Part shown: one piece after another, positions 88 through 18,720 of the stretch
Position numbering within the stretch: position 1 is the stretch's first letter
Layout: every line of letters starts with the position of its first letter
Virus record (IMG/VR): IMGVR_UViG_2634166457_000003
Location: 1-18,720 of that record
DNA length: 18,720 nucleotides
Reading direction: 5' to 3' (one strand)
Source: a virus
Taxonomy: Duplodnaviria > Heunggongvirae > Uroviricota > Caudoviricetes
Translations under genes and position numbers: made by a program
The notes under the pieces: model-generated
Databases searched by the model: none
Seen by the model: only the letters and a program-made list of their open reading frames with translations
Told to the model about the DNA's origin: nothing

Positions 88-630
88 TCAAGCCATTTTC
101 TCAGCAAATGATTCACGCATGGGAATATATAGGACATACTCAGCAACAGCTAACCAATTAGCGATCCGTTTTTCGCATGTGCTAAAACACCACTCTGGGT
201 GTGCATCATTGAGCAATTCAGCCATTTTACGCTTAGTCATCCCCCGCCCTTCATAGCGTTGCCGGAGAATGCAAATCAATCCTGGATGCTCTGCCAGCAC
301 CTCACTTATGACTCGATCAATACATAACGCCTCTGCATCAGTACAATGCGCCAGCCAGCTCTTTTGCTTGCCGTTGATCATCTCTCTCAAAAACGCTTCC
401 AGCTCAGCTTTCTCTATTCCCGCTTTTTTCATTCTGCGCAGGGCTTCATTGATGGCTGTTTTTGTCATTTTTGGGGATGCCAGCAACTGGTTAAACATAT
501 TCCCTGACCTGCCGCCGCCAATATACGACCAGCGCCCCCACATACGTAGTTTTCCCTGAATCCAGACACTTTCCAGCGTGGTGAGACGAAGGTGTTCTCC
601 GCTTTTTCCTGTATTCGTTGGGTAAATCAT
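88..630 (-). CDS. Putative late-gene antiterminator (Q-like), 180 aa
   Basis: Last gene of the leftward early operon, after the nin-like genes. Start trimmed to ATG at 630 (MIYPT...) preceded by AGGAGG; ATGA overlap with the upstream gene. Family assignment is by position plus a weakly recalled WGRW-type motif. Confidence 0.4.
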   Translation of the reverse strand: MIYPTNTGKSGEHLRLTTLESVWIQGKLRMWGRWSYIGGGRSGNMFNQLLASPKMTKTAINEALRRMKKAGIEKAELEAFLREMINGKQKSWLAHCTDAEALCIDRVISEVLAEHPGLICILRQRYEGRGMTKRKMAELLNDAHPEWCFSTCEKRIANWLAVAEYVLYIPMRESFAEKMA

Positions 631-917
631 AAATATCCCTCCTTTCTCCAGATTTCTTGTGTGCGAAGAACACCTTCTGCATGCATCAGGCGTAATTCTT
701 CTTTGGTGTAATCGATGGTTTTTACCCGCCCGTCGATTAGATCGTGGCATGAGCTACAGGCAATCGCCGCCTGCATATCGTGTGGTTTTGTCGCTGTTCC
801 GCACGTTCCCGCCAGTCGGTAATGCGCCAGCACAGACGTTTCCGGATCGTGATTGCAGTAGCCAGGAATTCTGACGGTGCACACCTGCCCCCGCGCCGCT
901 TTACGTAAATCCACCAT
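627..917 (-). CDS. YbcO-like (DUF1364-type) zinc-binding protein, putative nuclease, 96 aa
   Basis: 96 aa with Cys/His-rich motifs (CTVRIPGYCNHD...ACSSCHD); same length as the recalled DLP12 YbcO; start overlaps the stop of the upstream gene by 1 nt. Confidence 0.5.
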   Translation of the reverse strand: MVDLRKAARGQVCTVRIPGYCNHDPETSVLAHYRLAGTCGTATKPHDMQAAIACSSCHDLIDGRVKTIDYTKEELRLMHAEGVLRTQEIWRKEGYL

Positions 918-1516
918 TACGCAAACTCCAGCAGCTGCGCGGCCACATTTTCGACTTGTTCCGGAGAGGAAAATTTACGGAACAGAATCCAGTTCCACAG
1001 CACATTCAGAACAGATTTATAAACCTGCTGAAACTCGGTTTCGTCCATATTCGCAAAAGCGATGGATTTCGCCCGACGCCCATGGCTACCGTCCGGATAA
1101 AAATGTTCGGTGTAAAATCCAGCCTGAATGGTTACCCACTCGCGAAAAGCCTCAAACGACTTTAGCAATGCCGTATCCCGGGTTCTGCGTGTCGCAACTG
1201 TATTCAGATATTGCTCTGCGGCATCACTCAGGGCTGGCGTGTGTTCCCGACCAACTGATTCGCACAGGTAATCAACGAAACCAGACAGCAGTTCTCGTTC
1301 GCGAGGCGTGATCGCCCCACCGACCGGAGTCCAGTAATCGAATCCCAGTTGCAGGAGTTTGAAAAAACGCTTGTGGAATGCGTAGTTACGCACACGCTTA
1401 AAGTCTGCGTGTATCCACTCACCTATTTTGATTTGATGCAGAAAATCGCAACTCTCCGGCGTCGCCGGGAGAAGTAAACCAGAAGAAGTTTGTTTGACCA
1501 GTTGTATATGCGCCAT
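917..1516 (-). CDS. nin-region phage protein of unknown function (possibly DUF1367-like), 199 aa
   Basis: Long ORF with ATG start, coupled to the downstream YbcO-like gene; the family name is not verifiable from sequence alone. Confidence 0.5.
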   Translation of the reverse strand: MAHIQLVKQTSSGLLLPATPESCDFLHQIKIGEWIHADFKRVRNYAFHKRFFKLLQLGFDYWTPVGGAITPRERELLSGFVDYLCESVGREHTPALSDAAEQYLNTVATRRTRDTALLKSFEAFREWVTIQAGFYTEHFYPDGSHGRRAKSIAFANMDETEFQQVYKSVLNVLWNWILFRKFSSPEQVENVAAQLLEFA

Positions 1517-1979
1517 TTCTCAATCTCTCGATGGCGCAGTGCAGCAGATGCCAGTTGTTCAGGCTGACGTATAAAGTATAAATAAACTGGTTCCAGTGTA
1601 AAGCCCCCACCTTAATGGAATAAAAACCAAACAACAGATTGCTGGGATACAAACAACGCTTATTATTAAAAGCGGTTAAACAAATTAAATTTTAATGTTA
1701 TGCAAATTTGTCAGATCACCATAATATCTCATTTGAAAACCGCTGAAATAACAACCCTATCAGGGTTAATCATATTAAGGTGAGTAAATATGGAAAACAA
1801 CAAATCTGCACATTACGTTCCTTTTTTATCCGTAATACTTTTTGTTTTATGCTGTGCGTGGGCATTATTTTTATAAAAATATTTACAGATGAAGTAAACC
1901 CGCCAATCAGGTTAACTGTGGCTGCGTTGAGGATGCATAATACATCAGAGGTTGCGGGGATTTCTCCCCGCTGGTCCTC

Positions 1980-2135
1980 TTACTCCCCAAGTTCGTAAGC
2001 TGTGAAGACAGCGACCTCCGTCTGGCCGGTTCGGATTCGTACCTCGCAGAGGTCTTTCCTCGTTACCAGTGCCGTCACTATGACGGTTAAACAGATGACG
2101 ATAAGGGCGATTAACATCGCCTTTTGCTGCTTCAT
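1980..2135 (-). CDS. Hok/Gef-family type I toxin, 51 aa (HokD/RelF-like)
   Basis: MKQQKAMLIALIVICLTVIVTALVTRKDLCEVRIRTGQTEVAVFTAYELGE: single transmembrane helix plus the conserved C-terminal CE.R.R....EVA..YE motif of the Hok family. AAGGAG sits 9 nt upstream of the ATG. The track ORF 1980..2192 is an in-frame upstream extension of it. Confidence 0.75.
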   Translation of the reverse strand: MKQQKAMLIALIVICLTVIVTALVTRKDLCEVRIRTGQTEVAVFTAYELGE

Positions 2136-2393
2136 AGCCTGCTTCTCCTTGCCTTTCGGCACGTAAGAGGCTAACCTACATTTGCTAGACATAGATTGGG
2201 CCTCAGATTAATGTTAAGCGTCTTGCAGGACGCGTAATGTTAACTGGGGCTTTTCTCTATCTGCCGTTGGTGGCATGCCCGAGGCAGATAGCCTCAAGCA
2301 CCCGCTGCAATTCTACTTAACTCTTCTTTTCCCGCAAACCGTTTTTATCCAGCACAGCAAATAGCCGCATTAAGCCAATGTTGTTCATTGTGT

Positions 2394-2573
2394 TTACCGC
2401 CAGTATTCAATACAAATGACCGCCATGAATACCCCTACAAAAAGCGCACTTATATGTCCAAATATTAATGTCAAGACATCAACTTCCTCCATCTCCTCCG
2501 CTGTTGCGATGATAGGTATACATGATGCAAACAACCAGATTGCAACAAATAAAAACTGCAATGTCTTTTTCAT
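2394..2573 (-). CDS. Small two-helix membrane protein, 59 aa, hypothetical
   Basis: Start trimmed to ATG (MKKTLQFLFVAIWLF...) preceded by GGGGGA; two hydrophobic helices separated by an acidic loop (TAEEMEEVD). Confidence 0.4.
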   Translation of the reverse strand: MKKTLQFLFVAIWLFASCIPIIATAEEMEEVDVLTLIFGHISALFVGVFMAVICIEYWR

Positions 2574-2688
2574 TATTCCCCCGACAATCAATGAGTAATA
2601 ACATTTAAACATAGATTGACATAATCAGACATAAAAATATCTGGCTGCACATTTTGCTTACATCGTGTTATAGGGAAGATTAAAAAAT

Positions 2689-3252
2689 TCACCGCAAAAC
2701 ATCCGCCGCGCTTACCAGTCCATTTCGCTTCAGGTAGTCCATCGCTTTATCCGGTAATTTGCAGTCCGACTTCACTTTCTTCAACTGGCTGACCAATTGC
2801 TTAACCAGCATGGTTAATTCATTAATCTGTTTGCCTGGTACTGGTGGATTGTCGGTTGCACCATGACTGGCAGTACAGTTAGCACTCCCTCCCTTCTCCT
2901 CCTGCAGCGGTTCAGGTAACGCTTCCAGTGATGTTTTTACAAACCACGCTGCCTGAACTATAACGCCATGAATCCAGCGCAAATCAGCATCGCGATCTTT
3001 CTTTTTCATCTTCTCGCCACTTAAAGCCTGGCTTATGTGACTGCGTACCAGGTCTTCATGTAACTCCTTCGCATCCTCAATGGTGAAACCACCAGGTAAA
3101 CGCCCCAGAGTTACCGGAGAGTTGCCAGCCTTGCGCATGGCAATTTCCACGATTTCAACCATATCTTCTGGTGGAATTTTACAATGCTGGCCAATATGCC
3201 TCTGCTGTCTGGCATACTCGAGGATGTGCTCCAGCTTGGTTCGATTAATCAT
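2689..3252 (-). CDS. Hypothetical phage protein, 187 aa
   Basis: ORF with ATG start overlapping the upstream stop (ATGA), consistent with translational coupling; no motif recognised. Confidence 0.6.
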   Translation of the reverse strand: MINRTKLEHILEYARQQRHIGQHCKIPPEDMVEIVEIAMRKAGNSPVTLGRLPGGFTIEDAKELHEDLVRSHISQALSGEKMKKKDRDADLRWIHGVIVQAAWFVKTSLEALPEPLQEEKGGSANCTASHGATDNPPVPGKQINELTMLVKQLVSQLKKVKSDCKLPDKAMDYLKRNGLVSAADVLR

Positions 3253-7336: not shown

Positions 7337-7759
7337 TTAATGAACAATGACAGAATCGTCGGAAGACCCGCCGCCGCTGAAATGCGCTTTCCGGTAAACG
7401 GCTTGGACTGCATCATCATGCGCATCAATTGCCGTACTTAACGCTTCCTGCGCCGCCAGTAATGCACGGCGTTCCAAGGTATCGAAGATGTAGAGTCGGT
7501 GACGCAGATCGCGCGGAAGGATTGCCAGAATTGCTGGGATCAGCTTCTGAATTTTTTCTCTTTGCGTTTTTGTTTCACCTTTCAACCAACGGTGATAGAT
7601 ATTCTGCTGATTGTTCCAGTCCTTGCCTGGAACCAGGGGCAATTCGCAGTCCCCCTGGCGCAGATATTCTTCAGTAATTGCATTGGCTACCCATGCCTGC
7701 CCTTTTTCGGCTGCCAGGGCAAACAACACTGATTCGATGTGCTCATGCTTGATTTTCAT
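7337..7759 (-). CDS. ydaT: YdaT (cII-like early regulator/toxin), 140 aa
   Basis: 140 aa, immediately downstream of the cro-like ydaS; matches recalled K-12 Rac YdaT. Confidence 0.8.
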   Translation of the reverse strand: MKIKHEHIESVLFALAAEKGQAWVANAITEEYLRQGDCELPLVPGKDWNNQQNIYHRWLKGETKTQREKIQKLIPAILAILPRDLRHRLYIFDTLERRALLAAQEALSTAIDAHDDAVQAVYRKAHFSGGGSSDDSVIVH

Positions 7760-11051: not shown

Positions 11052-14000
11052 ATGAGCACAAAACCACTCTTCCTTTTACGGAAAGCGAAAAAATCATCCG
11101 GTGAGCCTGACGTCGTCCTGTGGGCAAGCGACGATTTTGAATCAACCTGTGCCACTCTGGACTACCTGATCGTTAAGTCAGGTAAAAAACTGAGCAACTA
11201 TTTTAAAGCTGTTGCCACGAGTTTTCCTGTCGTTAATGACCTGCCCCCTGAAGGTGAGATCGATTTTACCTGGAGTGAACGCTATCAACTCAGCAAAGAC
11301 TCCATGACCTGGGAACTAAAACCGGGAGCAGCGCCAGACGACGTTCACCACCAGGATAATGCTCAGGAAACCAAAGAACTGGCGGGAGGCCAGGAAGAAA
11401 ACGCGCAGGCAGACGCCCACGGGGATTGCCAGGATTGCGAAGTCTCTGTAGCCACTTTGCGGTTCACACAGCGTCTTCTTCACATTTTTACGTATGCGGC
11501 CGGGGATCGGAAATACCTGCATCATGCTACCCGTGAACAACGCGAACACATTACTGCTCTTGAGATGGACCAGGAAAACAGCTATGTCCAGAATCTGCTG
11601 TTGGCCATACGCGGCATGGCAGAACCGACAACTCTGGATAATGCCGCCCTGCTCCGCCTGACTGATGCAATTAAGGCAGTTTTCTCTATCACGAAAAAAC
11701 ATCAGCCCTATGAATTTAAGAATTTCATTTCAGCCTGGCTGGATACCGAACACATTGATCGTGGTCTTCTGACAAAAGAATGGAGGAAAGGGAATCGTGT
11801 TTCACGCATCACTCGCACGGCTTCCGGTGCTAATGCTGGCGGCGGGAACCTCACCGATCGCGGCGAAGATTTCGTCCACGATCTGACGTCACTGGCACGC
11901 GATGTAGCCACTGGCGTACTGGCCCGTTCAATGGACGTGGACATCTATAACCTTCATCCGGCACACGCTAAACGCATTGAGGAAATTATCGCTGAAAATA
12001 AACCGCCCTTTTCTGTTTTCCGCGACAAATTCATCACCATGCCTGGCGGGCTGGATTATTCCCGCGCCATCGTGGTTGCGTCCGTAAAAGAAGCACCAAT
12101 TGGGATCGAGGTCATCCCCGCGCACGTCACTGAATATCTGAACAAAGTACTGACTGAAACCGATCATGCAAACCCTGATCCGGAAATCGTGGATATTGCC
12201 TGCGGTCGCTCCTCTGCCCCGATGCCGCAGCGAGTAACAGAAGAAGGAAAACAGGATGATGAAGAAAAACCGCAACCATCTTGCGCAATGGCAAATGAAC
12301 AGGCAACGGCTGAAACAATGGAACCGGACGCAACTGAACATCATCAGGACACGCAGCCGCTGGATGCTCAGTCACAGGTAAATTCTGCTGATGCGAAATA
12401 TCAGGAACTGCGGGCAGAACTCCATGAAGCCCGGAAAAACATTCCATCAAAAAATCCTGTCGATGCCGACAAATTGCTGGCTGCCTCGCGTGGTGAGTTC
12501 GTTGAAGGGATTAGCGACCCGAACGATCCGAAATGGGTAAAGGGGATCCAGACTCGCGACTCTGTGTACCAGAACCAGCCAGAAACGAAACAAAACACGC
12601 CAGAAACTGTAAAAACCAGCCCGGATGTGAAACAACCTGAGCCAGTAGTGCAACAGAAACCGGAAATAGTCTGCAATGCCTGCGGTCAGACTGGCGGGGA
12701 TAACTGCCCTGACTGTGGTGCGGTGATGGGCGACGCAACATACCAGGAAACATTCGATGAAGAGAATCAGGTTGAAGCTAAGGAAAATGATCCGGAGGAA
12801 ATGGAAGGCGCTGAACATCCGCACAAGGAGAACGCTGGCAACCATCCGCATCACGATTGCAGTGATGAAACTGGTGAAGCGTCAGCTCATGTAGCAACTG
12901 AAATCATGTGGCCGTCATATTTCGAGCCTGGCCGCTATGAAAACCTCCCGAACGAGGTTTATCACTCCGCCAACGGAATAAGCAGCACAATGCTGAAGGA
13001 TGCCCGCATCAGTCTGATGTATTACCACGGGCGGCACATTGCCGGAACTATTCCGAACGAGGAAAGTGATGCATTGCTGCGTGGGCGGATCATTCACAGC
13101 TATGTTCTGGAAACGGATAAATTCGCTGATGAATATGCCATTCCGGTACCGGTTCCTGAATATGTGGTTACTACTTCTAACGAGCTGATCACCATCATTA
13201 AAAAACACAATGCCAGTCTGCCATCACTGATGACACCAGAGCAGATGAAAGAGTGGATCGAAAGCTACAACAGCACTCTTATACAGCCACTGTCGGTAAG
13301 CGCTGGGGCCGAAGAAACAGGCATCCTTTACGGTTCGCTTCCGGAGGAATTTCGGCGTATTCCTGAGGGGGAAAAACACACAGCATCAGCAATGAAAGCC
13401 TGTATTAAAGAATACAACGCAAGCCTCCCTCCTCTGCTGAAAACCAGTGGAACACGGGAGCAGCTTCTGGAGCAAATTGAAACTGTAGATCCAGAACTGG
13501 CAAAAAAAGAACGTGCTAAATCGTTGCCTTACAACATCAGTGGCACAAAAGAGCAATTAACCGAAATCGCCCGGAAAATTCGCCCGGAACTGGTAACACT
13601 GGAGGACTGGCAAAAACGCCAGCAAGAAGAAAATGCAGGAAAAACGTTTATCAGTCCAGATATGTATGAACAGGCAAAAAATATTCACGTGGCACTGCAA
13701 AACAATACTGACGCGGCAAGACTACTCAACCACCCGGATCGCAAATCTGAAATCAGCTATTTCGGGTTTGATGAAGAAACCGGGCTGGAAATCAGGGTCC
13801 GCCCTGATATCGAAATCCGACTGCCATACGAAAGCATCTGCGCCGACGTGAAATCAGTAAGCCTCGGTTATGTGCGGCAAGAACGACTAAAAGATCGCTT
13901 ACACCGTGAAATTATTGAACGTGATTATCACCTGAGCGCCGCAATGTACTGCGATGTGGCAAACTTGGACAAATTTTTCTGGATCTTCGTCAACAAAGAT

Positions 14001-14063
14001 GCTGGCTATCACTGGGTGGCTGTCGTGGAAGCCTCGCAGGAACTCCTGGAACTTGGTCGATAG
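11052..14063 (+). CDS. recE: RecE-like exodeoxyribonuclease VIII, 1003 aa as read; ends at an in-frame amber codon with the frame open to 14195
   Basis: N-terminal roughly 600 aa match the recalled K-12 RecE ([26 protein letters not shown]...); the C-terminal domain carries PD-(D/E)xK-like motifs ([13 protein letters not shown]). TAG at 14061-14063 is followed by 43 sense codons in the same frame up to TGA 14193-14195. Confidence 0.8.
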
Positions 14064-14206
14064 GAATATCGCCGGACGCTACGACAGATAAACGAAGCGC
14101 TGGAGACAAACAACTGGCCAGCACCGATTACCGAAAGTTATACCGACGAATTAAACGACTTTGATCTTCGTCGTCTTGAAGCACTGAGCATCTGAGGAAG
14201 GACACA

Positions 14207-15259
14207 ATGAACGAATTAACTCAACAAGAAAATATTAACTCTAATGTTGCAGTTTTCAGCCCTCAGTCTCTGGCTGCAATTCAGACGTTTTCTCAGGTAA
14301 TGGCTTCCGGCATGGCTACTGTACCGGAACACCTCCGAGGAAATCCATCAGACTGCATGGCCATCACCATGCAGGCGATGCAGTGGCAAATGAACCCTTA
14401 CGCAGTAGCTCAGAAAACTTTCGTTGTGAATGGTGTGCTCGGATATGAAGCGCAACTGGTTAATGCCGTAATCAGTACTCGTGGGCCGCTAACCGGGCGT
14501 ATTGAATATGACTGGTTCGGGCCGTGGGAAAAAATTATCGGGAAATTTGAAATCAGGAAGAACGACAAAGGGAAAGAATATCGTGTACCTGGCTGGAAGC
14601 TGGCCGATGAAAACGGGATCGGAGTTCGCGTCCAGGCAACACTACGCGGAGAGAGCAAACCACGCGTACTGGAGTTACTTCTGGCGCAGGCCAGAACACG
14701 TAACTCAACGTTATGGGCCGATGATCCTCGTCAGCAGCTTGCCTATCTGGCACTGAAACGCTGGGCGCGCCTTTATTGCCCTGAAGTGATTCTTGGAGTG
14801 TACACCCGGGACGAACTGGACGAACCACAGGAAAAAATCATTAATCCGGTTCAGGAACATAAAAACACATCCGCCTGCCGTGCGGAACGTGAAACAACAA
14901 TTATTGAGCAGGATGCAGGGGAAAACTGGATCAGTGCTTTCCGTGAACGTATTGAGCAGGCACAAAGCACCGGAGAAACAACAGCACTTCGGCAGGAAGT
15001 GGAAGAGCATAAAAATACACTTGGCGCTCTCTATACGGAACTTAAAGGAAAAGTGGTTCAGCGTCATCACCGTCTCAATGCTATTGCCCGTATTGAGAAG
15101 ATGATAAATGACCTGCCTTCATCAGGTGATCCGGAAGCAGAACAAAAATTTACTGCTCTGGAAAATGCGTTGAATGCTGCACGACCACATCTGGGAGAAT
15201 TATATGAGGCGTATAAAACGACACTGACAGATATGAAACCAGAATATATCGGCTCCTGA
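14207..15259 (+). CDS. Single-strand annealing protein of the Red-beta/RecT superfamily, 350 aa (not K-12 RecT)
   Basis: Sits in the recT position after recE; GAGGAAGG upstream of the ATG. Segments MNPYAVAQKTFVVNGVLGYEAQLVNAVI and WADDPRQQLAYLALKRWARLY resemble the Red-beta core, while the overall sequence differs from the recalled K-12 RecT. Confidence 0.7.
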   Translation: MNELTQQENINSNVAVFSPQSLAAIQTFSQVMASGMATVPEHLRGNPSDCMAITMQAMQWQMNPYAVAQKTFVVNGVLGYEAQLVNAVISTRGPLTGRIEYDWFGPWEKIIGKFEIRKNDKGKEYRVPGWKLADENGIGVRVQATLRGESKPRVLELLLAQARTRNSTLWADDPRQQLAYLALKRWARLYCPEVILGVYTRDELDEPQEKIINPVQEHKNTSACRAERETTIIEQDAGENWISAFRERIEQAQSTGETTALRQEVEEHKNTLGALYTELKGKVVQRHHRLNAIARIEKMINDLPSSGDPEAEQKFTALENALNAARPHLGELYEAYKTTLTDMKPEYIGS

Positions 15260-18300: not shown

Positions 18301-18302
18301 CC

Positions 18303-18720
18303 TGAACTGCACCCCAAATGTTGGACATAATCTGACATCTGAAGGTGCAGTTTATGAAACATTCATTTGAAGTAAAACTTGCCGCTGTAAATCATTACCT
18401 GGCTGGTCATGCAGGCATCATTTCTACGGCAAAACTCTTTCAACTTTCTCACACCAGCCTCTCACACTGGATTAATCTTTTTCTTCTTCACGGTCCTCGG
18501 GCACTGGATTGCAGACACAAGCGTAGCTATTCTCCTGAAGATAAACTTTGCGTGGTTCTTTATGCTCTCGGGCATTCTGAGTCTCCTACCCCGGGTAGCT
18601 GCCCGGTTTAACATTCCCAGCCACAACACGGTTAAAAACTGGATAAAAGGCTACCGCAAATCTGGTAATGAGGCCTTTATCAGGCGCAGGAAGGAGAAAA
18701 GCATGACCGTTCTGATGATA
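18303..18720 (+). mobile_element. IS3-family (IS150-group-like) element, left part; continues beyond the window
   Basis: Begins with TG (TGAACTGCACCCCAAATGTTGGACA), an IS3-family-style terminus, followed by an orfA-like reading frame. The left boundary is approximate. Confidence 0.45.
18345..18611 (+). pseudogene. IS3-family transposase OrfA-like gene, apparently frameshifted
   Basis: N-terminus (FEVKLAAVNHYLAG...) aligns with recalled IS150 OrfA; the similarity continues in the +1 frame after about 18590 (VAARFNIPSHNTVKNWIKGYRKSGNEAF), with the frame change at a CCCCGGG run. Confidence 0.5.

What the first reader, a model, noticed from the sequence alone, without database searches (positions are those of the whole stretch)
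14061..14195. In-frame amber codon truncates the recE-like exonuclease 43 codons before its apparent natural stop
TAG at 14061-14063 is followed in the same frame by 43 sense codons (EYRRTLRQINEALETNNWPAPITESYTDELNDFDLRRLEALSI) ending at TGA 14193-14195, which sits just before the Shine-Dalgarno of the annealase gene. The recalled K-12 RecE has Gln at the aligned position (…GQQEYHRNLRTL…), so CAG to TAG is the simplest explanation. The exonuclease is therefore either inactivated or dependent on an amber suppressor (for example supE/glnV44).
Basis: partly seen in the sequence, partly recalled or inferred. Interest (0 to 1): 0.7.

Follow-up and report, generated by a model that had tools for sequence, protein, structure and literature searches.

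The report
Private amber mutation truncating prophage recE
One E. coli strain (M114) has a single C-to-T change that puts a premature stop codon in the recE exonuclease gene of its Rac-type prophage, removing a conserved 44-residue end of the enzyme; this is ordinary decay of a prophage gene, or a base-call error, not a new biological mechanism.

Summary
The recE-like ORF 11052..14063 ends at TAG 14061-14063. The frame then stays open for 43 codons to TGA 14193-14195, 11 nt before a RecT-family gene. The window comes from E. coli M114 (GCA_001186315.2, contig KQ241480.1; T14061 is contig position 37181).

Every relative has CAG (Gln) here. A 31-mer carrying the T matches 0 of 5,426 complete E. 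coli genomes, while the C version matches 190. All 12 related loci I read have C (14 were read in all; two are M114's own contig and carry T). One differs from the window only at this base over 5.5 kb. Another differs at two bases over 14.3 kb and shares the same IS insertion. A 1047-aa protein seen on 9 contigs is identical to the window's product apart from the stop.

The stop falls inside the nuclease domain. It cuts a predicted 24-residue helix and removes an invariant WP-P loop and a terminal helix. The tail is at least as conserved as the rest of the domain, and pN/pS is 0.10-0.23.

Best reading: a very recent private CAG-to-TAG mutation that probably inactivates the exonuclease. An assembly error (about 13%) cannot be excluded without reads. 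Dependence on an amber suppressor has no support and could not be tested. Interest is low.

The parts
11052..14063 (+). Truncated recE (exodeoxyribonuclease VIII) ORF: 1003 codons plus the TAG. It has an N-terminal Exonuc_VIII domain and a C-terminal PD-(D/E)XK nuclease domain that is cut short.
   Evidence: ORF list. Pfam PF06630 covers residues 2-182, and PF12684 reaches only profile position 166 of 233 in the truncated product against 222 of 233 in the full-length allele. NCBIfam NF007259 equivalog scores 1312 bits, with the match ending at profile position 840 of 877. The exact protein is KNA39971.1 / WP_075329375.1 of E. coli M114.
14061..14063 (+). Premature amber codon. T14061 is a private C-to-T transition (CAG Gln to TAG).
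   Evidence: The alignment shows C in A30, UMNF18 and 2013C-3342. All 12 related loci have CAG. The 31-mer with T gives 0 hits in 5,426 genomes and the 31-mer with C gives 190 genomes. A 37-mer with T is absent from the 185,579 species-representative genomes.
14064..14195 (+). Orphaned 3' end of recE: 43 sense codons plus the ancestral stop TGA 14193-14195. It contains no in-frame ATG, GTG or TTG.
   Evidence: Translation. The tail amino-acid sequence is identical in L001, L002, L003, L005, L009 and L010, with synonymous differences only. The tail is conserved across Enterobacterales homologues, including the EY, WPAP and L-DFD-RRLE-AL positions. It is modelled as the rest of helix 473-496, a loop and helix 513-523.
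14194..14206 (+). Shine-Dalgarno-like GAGGAAGGA (14194-14202) and the spacer before the annealase start codon.
   Evidence: Read directly from the sequence.
14207..15259 (+). Intact RecT-family annealase gene (350 aa), the partner of recE. It now lies 143 nt downstream of the point where recE translation stops.
   Evidence: ORF list. Pfam PF03837 RecT. The identical protein occurs on 15 contigs, and in every relative listed it sits next to a recE that reads on to the natural stop (1047 aa where the gene is complete in the locus).

Best explanation
A single, very recent C-to-T transition converted Gln codon 1004 (CAG) of the recE gene into an amber stop. The gene belongs to a Rac-type lambdoid prophage integrated next to ttcA in E. 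coli M114. Translation ends 44 residues early, inside the C-terminal PD-(D/E)XK nuclease domain. The catalytic Asp/Asp-x-Lys residues are kept (window residues about 919, 932 and 934). Lost are two thirds of the last long helix, the invariant W-P-x-P loop and the terminal helix. In K-12 RecE the equivalent segment is 831-866, which includes Arg858 at the narrow exit of the tetramer channel. The most likely result is a misfolded or non-assembling enzyme, hence an inactive 5'-3' dsDNA exonuclease. The recT partner keeps its own ribosome-binding site but loses close coupling to recE translation. This is ordinary pseudogenisation of a prophage gene that is normally repressed in a lysogen. Shown here: the base change, its uniqueness, its position in the domain, and conservation of the lost segment. 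Inferred: loss of activity and any polar effect on recT.
For: Base change and uniqueness. Recency: L014 (5,541 nt) differs from the window only at 14061. L012 (14,292 nt, with the same IS junction after ttcA) differs only at 7648 and 14061, and there are no indels. P0005 (1047 aa, seen on 9 contigs) equals the window product at all other 1046 positions. Position in the domain: the PF12684 match reaches profile position 222 of 233 in the full-length allele but only 166 in the truncated product. The NCBIfam equivalog match ends at 840 of 877. Fold: the AlphaFold model of the 97%-identical P0094 has helix 473-496 spanning the stop position (residue 481), then a loop and helix 513-523, with pLDDT 55-89. 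Its best PDB match is RecE 3H4R at E = 1.4e-9. Constraint: in the tail the commonest residue accounts for 0.78 of sequences per column on average, against 0.72 for the preceding 138 residues, over 65 homologues. W499, P500 and P502 are invariant, and L511, D513, R518, L519, E520 and L522 are nearly so. pN/pS is 0.10-0.23 for the nuclease domain among E. coli alleles, with no amino-acid change in the tail. Literature: RecE Arg858 is placed at the channel exit (PMC3239189), and the nuclease domain 564-866 is the functional unit (PMC11611040). Decay of this module recurs: a recT pseudogene in strain 2013C-3342 and frameshifted RecE C-termini in other genomes.
Against: Only one assembly carries the T, and no reads were available, so a consensus error is not excluded. 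No experiment shows that the 1003-aa protein is inactive. All catalytic motifs are retained. The Gln residue itself is not conserved (most distant homologues have Leu). pLDDT over part of the tail is only moderate, 55-77. The K-12 papers that tested RecE truncations (Muyrers 2000; Chang and Julin 2001) and the 3H4R structure paper were not readable here.
Confidence: 0.78

Rival explanations
1. Sequencing or assembly artefact: the true M114 base is C and the gene is intact.
For: The T is a singleton. It is seen on one contig of one assembly and is the only difference from L014 over 5.5 kb. A lone substitution is exactly what a rare consensus error would look like.
Against: The surrounding 14.3 kb has no indels and only one other difference from its nearest relative, so the assembly is not error-prone here. 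Real SNPs between close relatives occur at about this density (2 in 14.3 kb). G:C-to-A:T transitions are the commonest spontaneous substitutions in E. coli (general knowledge). The gene is silent in lysogens, so a nonsense allele is not strongly purged.
Confidence: 0.13
2. The amber codon is read through, either by a natural amber suppressor tRNA in M114 (supE-like) or by programmed readthrough, so full-length RecE is still made.
For: The downstream 43 codons are still intact and identical to functional alleles. That is what one would see under suppression, but also what one would see after a very recent mutation.
Against: There is no tRNA gene in the window. The stop is not conserved in any relative, 0 of 190 genomes and 0 of 12 loci, which excludes an evolved readthrough signal. 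The locus is not K-12-like (a 1047-aa RecE and a 350-aa RecT against 866 and 269 aa in K-12), so the laboratory supE44 background is not expected. Amber suppressors are uncommon in natural isolates (general knowledge).
Confidence: 0.03
3. The mutation is real but functionally neutral or only mildly harmful: the truncated enzyme still folds, assembles and resects DNA.
For: The catalytic D, D-x-K and the YH..A.Y motif all lie upstream of the stop. The truncated protein still passes the NCBIfam equivalog cut-off, 1312 against 1269 bits. The K-12 tail differs in length and sequence after the WPA motif.
Against: The tail is as conserved as the catalytic core across Enterobacterales and shows only synonymous change within E. 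coli. The stop cuts through a helix rather than falling between structural elements. No natural homologue ends there.
Confidence: 0.1

Closest known systems
Full-length allele of the same gene (P0005: EGI41467.1 and others, 1047 aa) in Rac-type prophages of other E. coli, for example GCA_051592065.1 and Logan SRR28921530
   Same: It is identical at all 1046 other residues. The flanking DNA is identical or differs at one other base, and the same IS insertion lies after ttcA. The gene order is the same: kilR-ydaE-orf-recE-recT-ralR-DUF1187-xis-int-ttcA.
   Different: It has CAG (Gln1004) where the window has TAG, so its product is 1047 aa rather than 1003 aa.
E. coli K-12 Rac prophage RecE (exonuclease VIII, 866 aa; nuclease-domain structure PDB 3H4R)
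   Same: It has the same N-terminal Exonuc_VIII domain family and the same C-terminal PD-(D/E)XK fold. The block GxQEYxRxLRxxxxxLxTxxWPA aligns, with Gln at the mutated position. It occupies the same chromosomal site next to ttcA, with intR and xisR.
   Different: The nuclease domains match only weakly at sequence level (phmmer E = 3e-7; 21% identity in the structural alignment). The domain here is about 170 residues longer. The tail after WPA differs (ITESYTDELNDFDLRRLEALSI here, IKTLSLPRWAKEYAND in K-12). The partner annealase is 350 aa here against 269 aa in K-12. recE and recT overlap in K-12 but are 11 nt apart here. K-12 recE is intact.
recE-recT modules of sequenced phages: Actinobacillus phage vB_Apl-pPE4 (PP818812.1), Escherichia phage Rac-SA53 (KU052037.1) and Salmonella Gifsy-1 RecE
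   Same: The 13400-14400 segment is 98.5% identical to vB_Apl-pPE4 and 95.3% identical to Rac-SA53. Gifsy-1 RecE is 51% identical over the nuclease domain and has the same conserved tail.
   Different: Those copies are annotated as exodeoxyribonuclease VIII across the region, and the homologues read here run through to the natural stop. The window's copy is truncated.

Membership tests
RecE / exodeoxyribonuclease VIII (NCBIfam NF007259 equivalog) | Whole-protein score above the curated cut-off of 1269 bits | tested here: met
   The truncated product scores 1312.4 bits and the full-length allele 1366.8 bits.
RecE / exodeoxyribonuclease VIII | N-terminal Exonuc_VIII domain (PF06630) | tested here: met
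   Residues 2-182, E = 1e-66.
RecE / exodeoxyribonuclease VIII | Complete C-terminal PD-(D/E)XK nuclease domain (PF12684; RecE 3H4R fold) | tested here: not met
   The truncated product matches the profile only to position 166 of 233, against 222 of 233 in the full-length allele. The stop lies inside modelled helix 473-496, and the last 44 residues are missing. The fold of the restored domain matches 3H4R at E = 1.4e-9.
RecE / exodeoxyribonuclease VIII | Catalytic Asp ... Asp-x-Lys residues present | tested here: met
   D396, D409 and K411 are invariant in alignment A2 (window residues 919, 932 and 934), upstream of the stop at 1004.
RecE / exodeoxyribonuclease VIII | Adjacent partner annealase gene of the RecT family | tested here: met
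   The gene at 14207..15259 matches PF03837 and is intact.
RecE / exodeoxyribonuclease VIII | Toroidal tetramer with processive 5'-3' dsDNA exonuclease activity | not testable with these tools
   This needs purified protein. The tools returned only monomer confidence and secondary structure.
Suppressor-dependent (conditional amber) gene | An amber suppressor tRNA (anticodon CUA) in the same genome | not testable with these tools
   There is no tRNA gene in the window. Other M114 contigs could not be fetched.
Programmed stop-codon readthrough or recoding | The in-frame stop is conserved among relatives | tested here: not met
   The T-allele 31-mer occurs in 0 of 5,426 genomes and the C-allele in 190. 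All 12 related loci have CAG.

The most novel reading that the evidence does not exclude
The stop is real and biologically tolerated in one of two ways. Either M114 is a natural isolate with an amber suppressor that restores Gln1004, or the 1003-aa RecE lacking its conserved C-terminal helix and WPAP loop has a changed activity. One example would be a poison subunit of RecE tetramers; another would be loss of an interaction made through the acidic DFDLRRLEAL tail.
Probability: 0.04. Interest if true: 0.35.

Novelty: already known. Interest (0 to 1): 0.1.

Why it matters
It matters little beyond annotation. RefSeq names the 1003-aa product (WP_075329375.1) "exodeoxyribonuclease VIII" without flagging it as truncated. 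It should be treated as a probable pseudogene, and anyone mining recET pairs for recombineering should not take the M114 allele. The one mildly useful point is that the lost 44 residues are strongly conserved, and in this RecE lineage they end in an acidic helix that K-12 RecE lacks. That marks a segment worth testing for tetramer assembly or for partner (RecT) interaction. The M114 allele would be a ready-made natural truncation for such a test.

Tried and rejected
- Species-representative genomes: a scan for the TAG-containing 37-mer found nothing. E. coli M114 is not a representative genome, so this says little.
I used the identical RecT protein instead.
- Two look-ups of the leftmost ORF (88..750) found no record. 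A look-up of the DUF1367 protein returned other strains' prophages, not M114's left flank. Whether the M114 prophage is complete was therefore not established.
- Literature: the 3H4R structure paper (Zhang et al. 2009) and Muyrers et al. 2000 are not held. My recollection that C-terminal deletions of K-12 RecE abolish recombination is unverified and is not used as evidence.
- A search for 'coli M114' found no paper. A search for 'truncated RecE' was swamped by 'receptor'.
- The promoter and terminator scan of 13700-14500 found nothing. It gives no evidence for or against polarity on recT. The 143-nt untranslated gap is not C-rich (35 C, 34 G).
- A separately translated tail ORF was rejected: there is no in-frame ATG, GTG or TTG after the TAG.
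- A Dcm deamination hotspot was rejected: the context GACAGG is not CCWGG (read from the sequence).

Full report
**1. Observation**

The ORF that starts at ATG 11052 runs for 1003 codons and ends at TAG 14061-14063. Translating on in the same frame gives EYRRTLRQINEALETNNWPAPITESYTDELNDFDLRRLEALSI, 43 sense codons, and then TGA at 14193-14195. The TGA overlaps a Shine-Dalgarno-like GAGGAAGGA (14194-14202), which precedes ATG 14207 of a 350-aa RecT-family gene.

From base composition alone, 43 open codons have a chance probability of about 0.10. The open frame by itself proves nothing; the case rests on homology.

**2. Source and context**

The exact 1003-aa protein is on record once. It is KNA39971.1 / WP_075329375.1, 'exodeoxyribonuclease VIII', from Escherichia coli M114, assembly GCA_001186315.2, contig KQ241480.1. 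Window position 14061 corresponds to contig position 37181, an offset of 23120.

The gene order is as follows:
- cro/YdaS-like and YdaT-like genes, then replication genes;
- on the other side of the repressor region: sieB, kilR, ydaE, an unnamed orf, recE, recT;
- then ralR/Lar, a DUF1187 gene, xis, int and ttcA.

This is a Rac-type lambdoid prophage at the Rac attachment site next to ttcA, as in K-12. The left end of the window carries a Q-antiterminator-like gene. The same recE-recT DNA occurs in sequenced phages, at 98.5% identity in vB_Apl-pPE4 and 95.3% in Rac-SA53.

**3. Is the stop ancestral or derived?**

It is derived, and it is private to this assembly.
- The annotated recE of strains A30, UMNF18 and 2013C-3342 ends exactly at the position of TGA 14195. 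All three have CAG where the window has TAG.
- None of the 191 complete E. coli genomes carrying this 61-nt stretch matches it perfectly.
- A 31-mer centred on the T requires an exact 28-mer through that base in megablast. It hits 0 of 5,426 complete genomes. The control 31-mer with C hits 190 genomes, 184 of them perfectly.
- Fifteen contigs encode the identical RecT protein. In each related locus listed, the recE next to it reads on to the natural stop: 1047 aa in the seven loci that hold the whole gene, cut only by the contig end in two. The source contig alone has 1003 aa.
- Base-by-base comparison shows CAG in all 12 related loci; the other two loci read are M114's own contig.
- L014 (Logan SRR28921530, 5,541 nt) differs from the window only at 14061.
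- L012 (GCA_051592065.1, 14,292 nt) has the same IS junction downstream of ttcA and differs only at 7648 and 14061, with no indels.
- In the 90%-identity protein cluster, P0005 (1047 aa, 9 contigs) equals the window's read-through product at all 1046 other positions.

The event is therefore one C-to-T transition on an otherwise unchanged background. The 129 nt after the stop show no decay: the tail amino-acid sequence is identical to that of six diverged E. coli alleles. Both facts point either to a very recent mutation or to a consensus error.

**4. What the truncation removes**

Pfam places a PD-(D/E)XK domain (PF12684) at residues 860-1024 of the full-length allele, reaching profile position 222 of 233. 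In the 1003-aa product the match stops at profile position 166 and the score falls from 50.9 to 37.2 bits. The NCBIfam exodeoxyribonuclease VIII equivalog matches to position 874 of 877 in the full-length allele but only to 840 in the truncated product. The truncated product still clears the cut-off, which explains why it is named as a normal protein.

Against K-12 RecE the stop aligns with the second Gln of GQQEYHRNLRTL. That is chain index 230 of the 265-residue 3H4R chain, or about residue 831 of 866 by my offset. The K-12 equivalent of the loss is thus roughly residues 831-866. That segment contains Arg858, which the literature places at the narrow exit of the tetramer channel, where the undigested 3' strand leaves (PMC3239189). 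The nuclease domain 564-866 is the genetically sufficient unit (PMC11611040).

I built an AlphaFold2 model of P0094, the C-terminal 524 residues of a 97%-identical allele, from a 29-sequence alignment. It gives a confident nuclease domain (pLDDT mostly 80-95 from residue 150 onward). Helix 473-496 spans the stop position (residue 481). It is followed by a loop carrying the invariant W499-P500-x-P502 and by a terminal helix 513-523. pLDDT over the lost part is 55-77. The model's best PDB match is RecE 3H4R at E = 1.4e-9.

The catalytic D396, D409 and K411 (window residues 919, 932 and 934) and the YH..A.Y motif lie upstream of the stop and are retained.

**5. Is the lost segment under constraint?**

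Yes.
- Over 65 homologues from Enterobacter, Salmonella, Klebsiella, Pectobacterium, Brenneria, Serratia, Arsenophonus and others, the commonest residue accounts on average for 0.78 of sequences per column in the 44-residue tail. The figure is 0.72 for the 138 residues before it.
- No homologue ends at the stop position. The few that end early are contig-end partials or frameshifted copies.
- Within E. coli, pN/pS for the nuclease domain is 0.10-0.23, and all nucleotide differences in the tail are synonymous.
- The Gln residue itself is not conserved; it is Leu in most distant homologues. A missense change there might have been harmless. It is the truncation that matters.

**6. Most likely mechanism**

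Shown: a private CAG-to-TAG change ends translation inside the last long helix of a conserved nuclease domain.

Inferred: the product lacks elements needed for folding, for ring assembly or for the ssDNA exit, and is therefore an inactive or strongly impaired exonuclease. recT is intact and has its own ribosome-binding site, but ribosomes now stop 143 nt upstream rather than 11 nt upstream, so its expression may drop. No terminator-like or promoter-like site lies in the gap, and the gap is not C-rich. I therefore make no strong claim about polarity.

In a lysogen this early-left operon is repressed; in K-12, recE is silent unless sbcA mutations activate it (established knowledge). The allele would thus be nearly neutral to the host and would matter only on induction. 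Decay of this module is recurrent: strain 2013C-3342 has recT annotated with an internal stop, and several database homologues have frameshifted C-termini.

**7. Rival explanations**

*Sequencing error.* The T is a singleton in one assembly, and reads could not be inspected. The neighbourhood is otherwise clean, with no indels and one other SNP in 14.3 kb. I give this about 0.13.

*Amber suppression or programmed readthrough.* There is no tRNA gene in the window. The stop is not conserved anywhere. The locus is unlike K-12's, so a laboratory supE44 background is not expected. The rest of the genome could not be examined. I give this about 0.03.

*Real but harmless.* The catalytic motifs are retained. 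However, the conservation of the tail, the cut through a helix and the absence of any natural homologue ending there all argue against it. I give this about 0.1.

**8. Comparison with the known, and novelty**

The gene is a member of the RecE / exodeoxyribonuclease VIII family by the NCBIfam equivalog, by the N-terminal Exonuc_VIII domain, by its fold and by its RecT neighbour. It fails only the test of a complete nuclease domain. It belongs to a RecE lineage (1047-1048 aa, partner RecT of 350 aa) whose nuclease domain is only distantly similar to that of K-12 RecE.

A nonsense allele of a known prophage gene is already a familiar kind of thing, and the truncated protein is already in RefSeq. 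No new mechanism is needed.

**9. Verdict**

- Inactivation is likely but inferred.
- The suppressor idea is unsupported and could not be tested.
- Interest is low (0.1).
- The most useful follow-up is a read pile-up at KQ241480.1:37181.

Noticed in passing
window 18302-18720 (ORF 18345..18611): Homology to other E. coli genomes stops just after ttcA. An IS3-family-like transposase orfA (HTH_28 / HTH_Tnp_1) begins there. In the source contig the insert between ttcA and dbpA is about 1.7 kb and holds only two short ORFs (85 and 106 aa), so it looks like a degenerate IS. The same junction is present in L012 and L014, which marks them as M114's closest relatives.
   Followed up: partly
L003 4808-5860 (E. 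coli 2013C-3342, NZ_CP027766.1): The RecT-family gene next to an intact recE is annotated as a pseudogene with an internal stop. Nonsense decay of the recET module therefore recurs in other strains.
   Followed up: no
window 14207-15259 compared with L015 (K-12): The annealase here is 350 aa, against 269 aa for K-12 RecT, and it is separated from recE by 11 nt. In K-12, recT and recE overlap by 8 nt. In this lineage the RecE tail ends in a conserved acidic helix (DELNDFDLRRLEAL) that K-12 RecE lacks. It might be a lineage-specific partner-contact element, but that is speculation.
   Followed up: no
homologues P0074, P0075, P0080, P0081, P0086: Several database RecE homologues from other Enterobacterales have C-termini that diverge abruptly into unrelated sequence, consistent with frameshifted, decaying copies.
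   Followed up: no
window 7648 (ydaT-like gene 7337..7759, minus strand): This is the only other difference from the nearest relative L012 (A here, C there). L011 also has C while L006 and L007 have A, so it is a segregating SNP and not private to M114.
   Followed up: partly
window 1516-2689: A stretch of about 1.2 kb between the DUF1367 gene and the next ORF has no ORF of 80 aa or more on either strand. It may be a degraded or non-coding region of the prophage.
   Followed up: no
phage record PP818812.1: A phage deposited as 'Actinobacillus phage vB_Apl-pPE4', with host Actinobacillus pleuropneumoniae, carries a recE-recT segment 98.5% identical to this E. coli prophage. That is an unexpectedly close match for a Pasteurellaceae phage, and it may reflect an E. 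coli-derived phage or a host mis-assignment.
   Followed up: no
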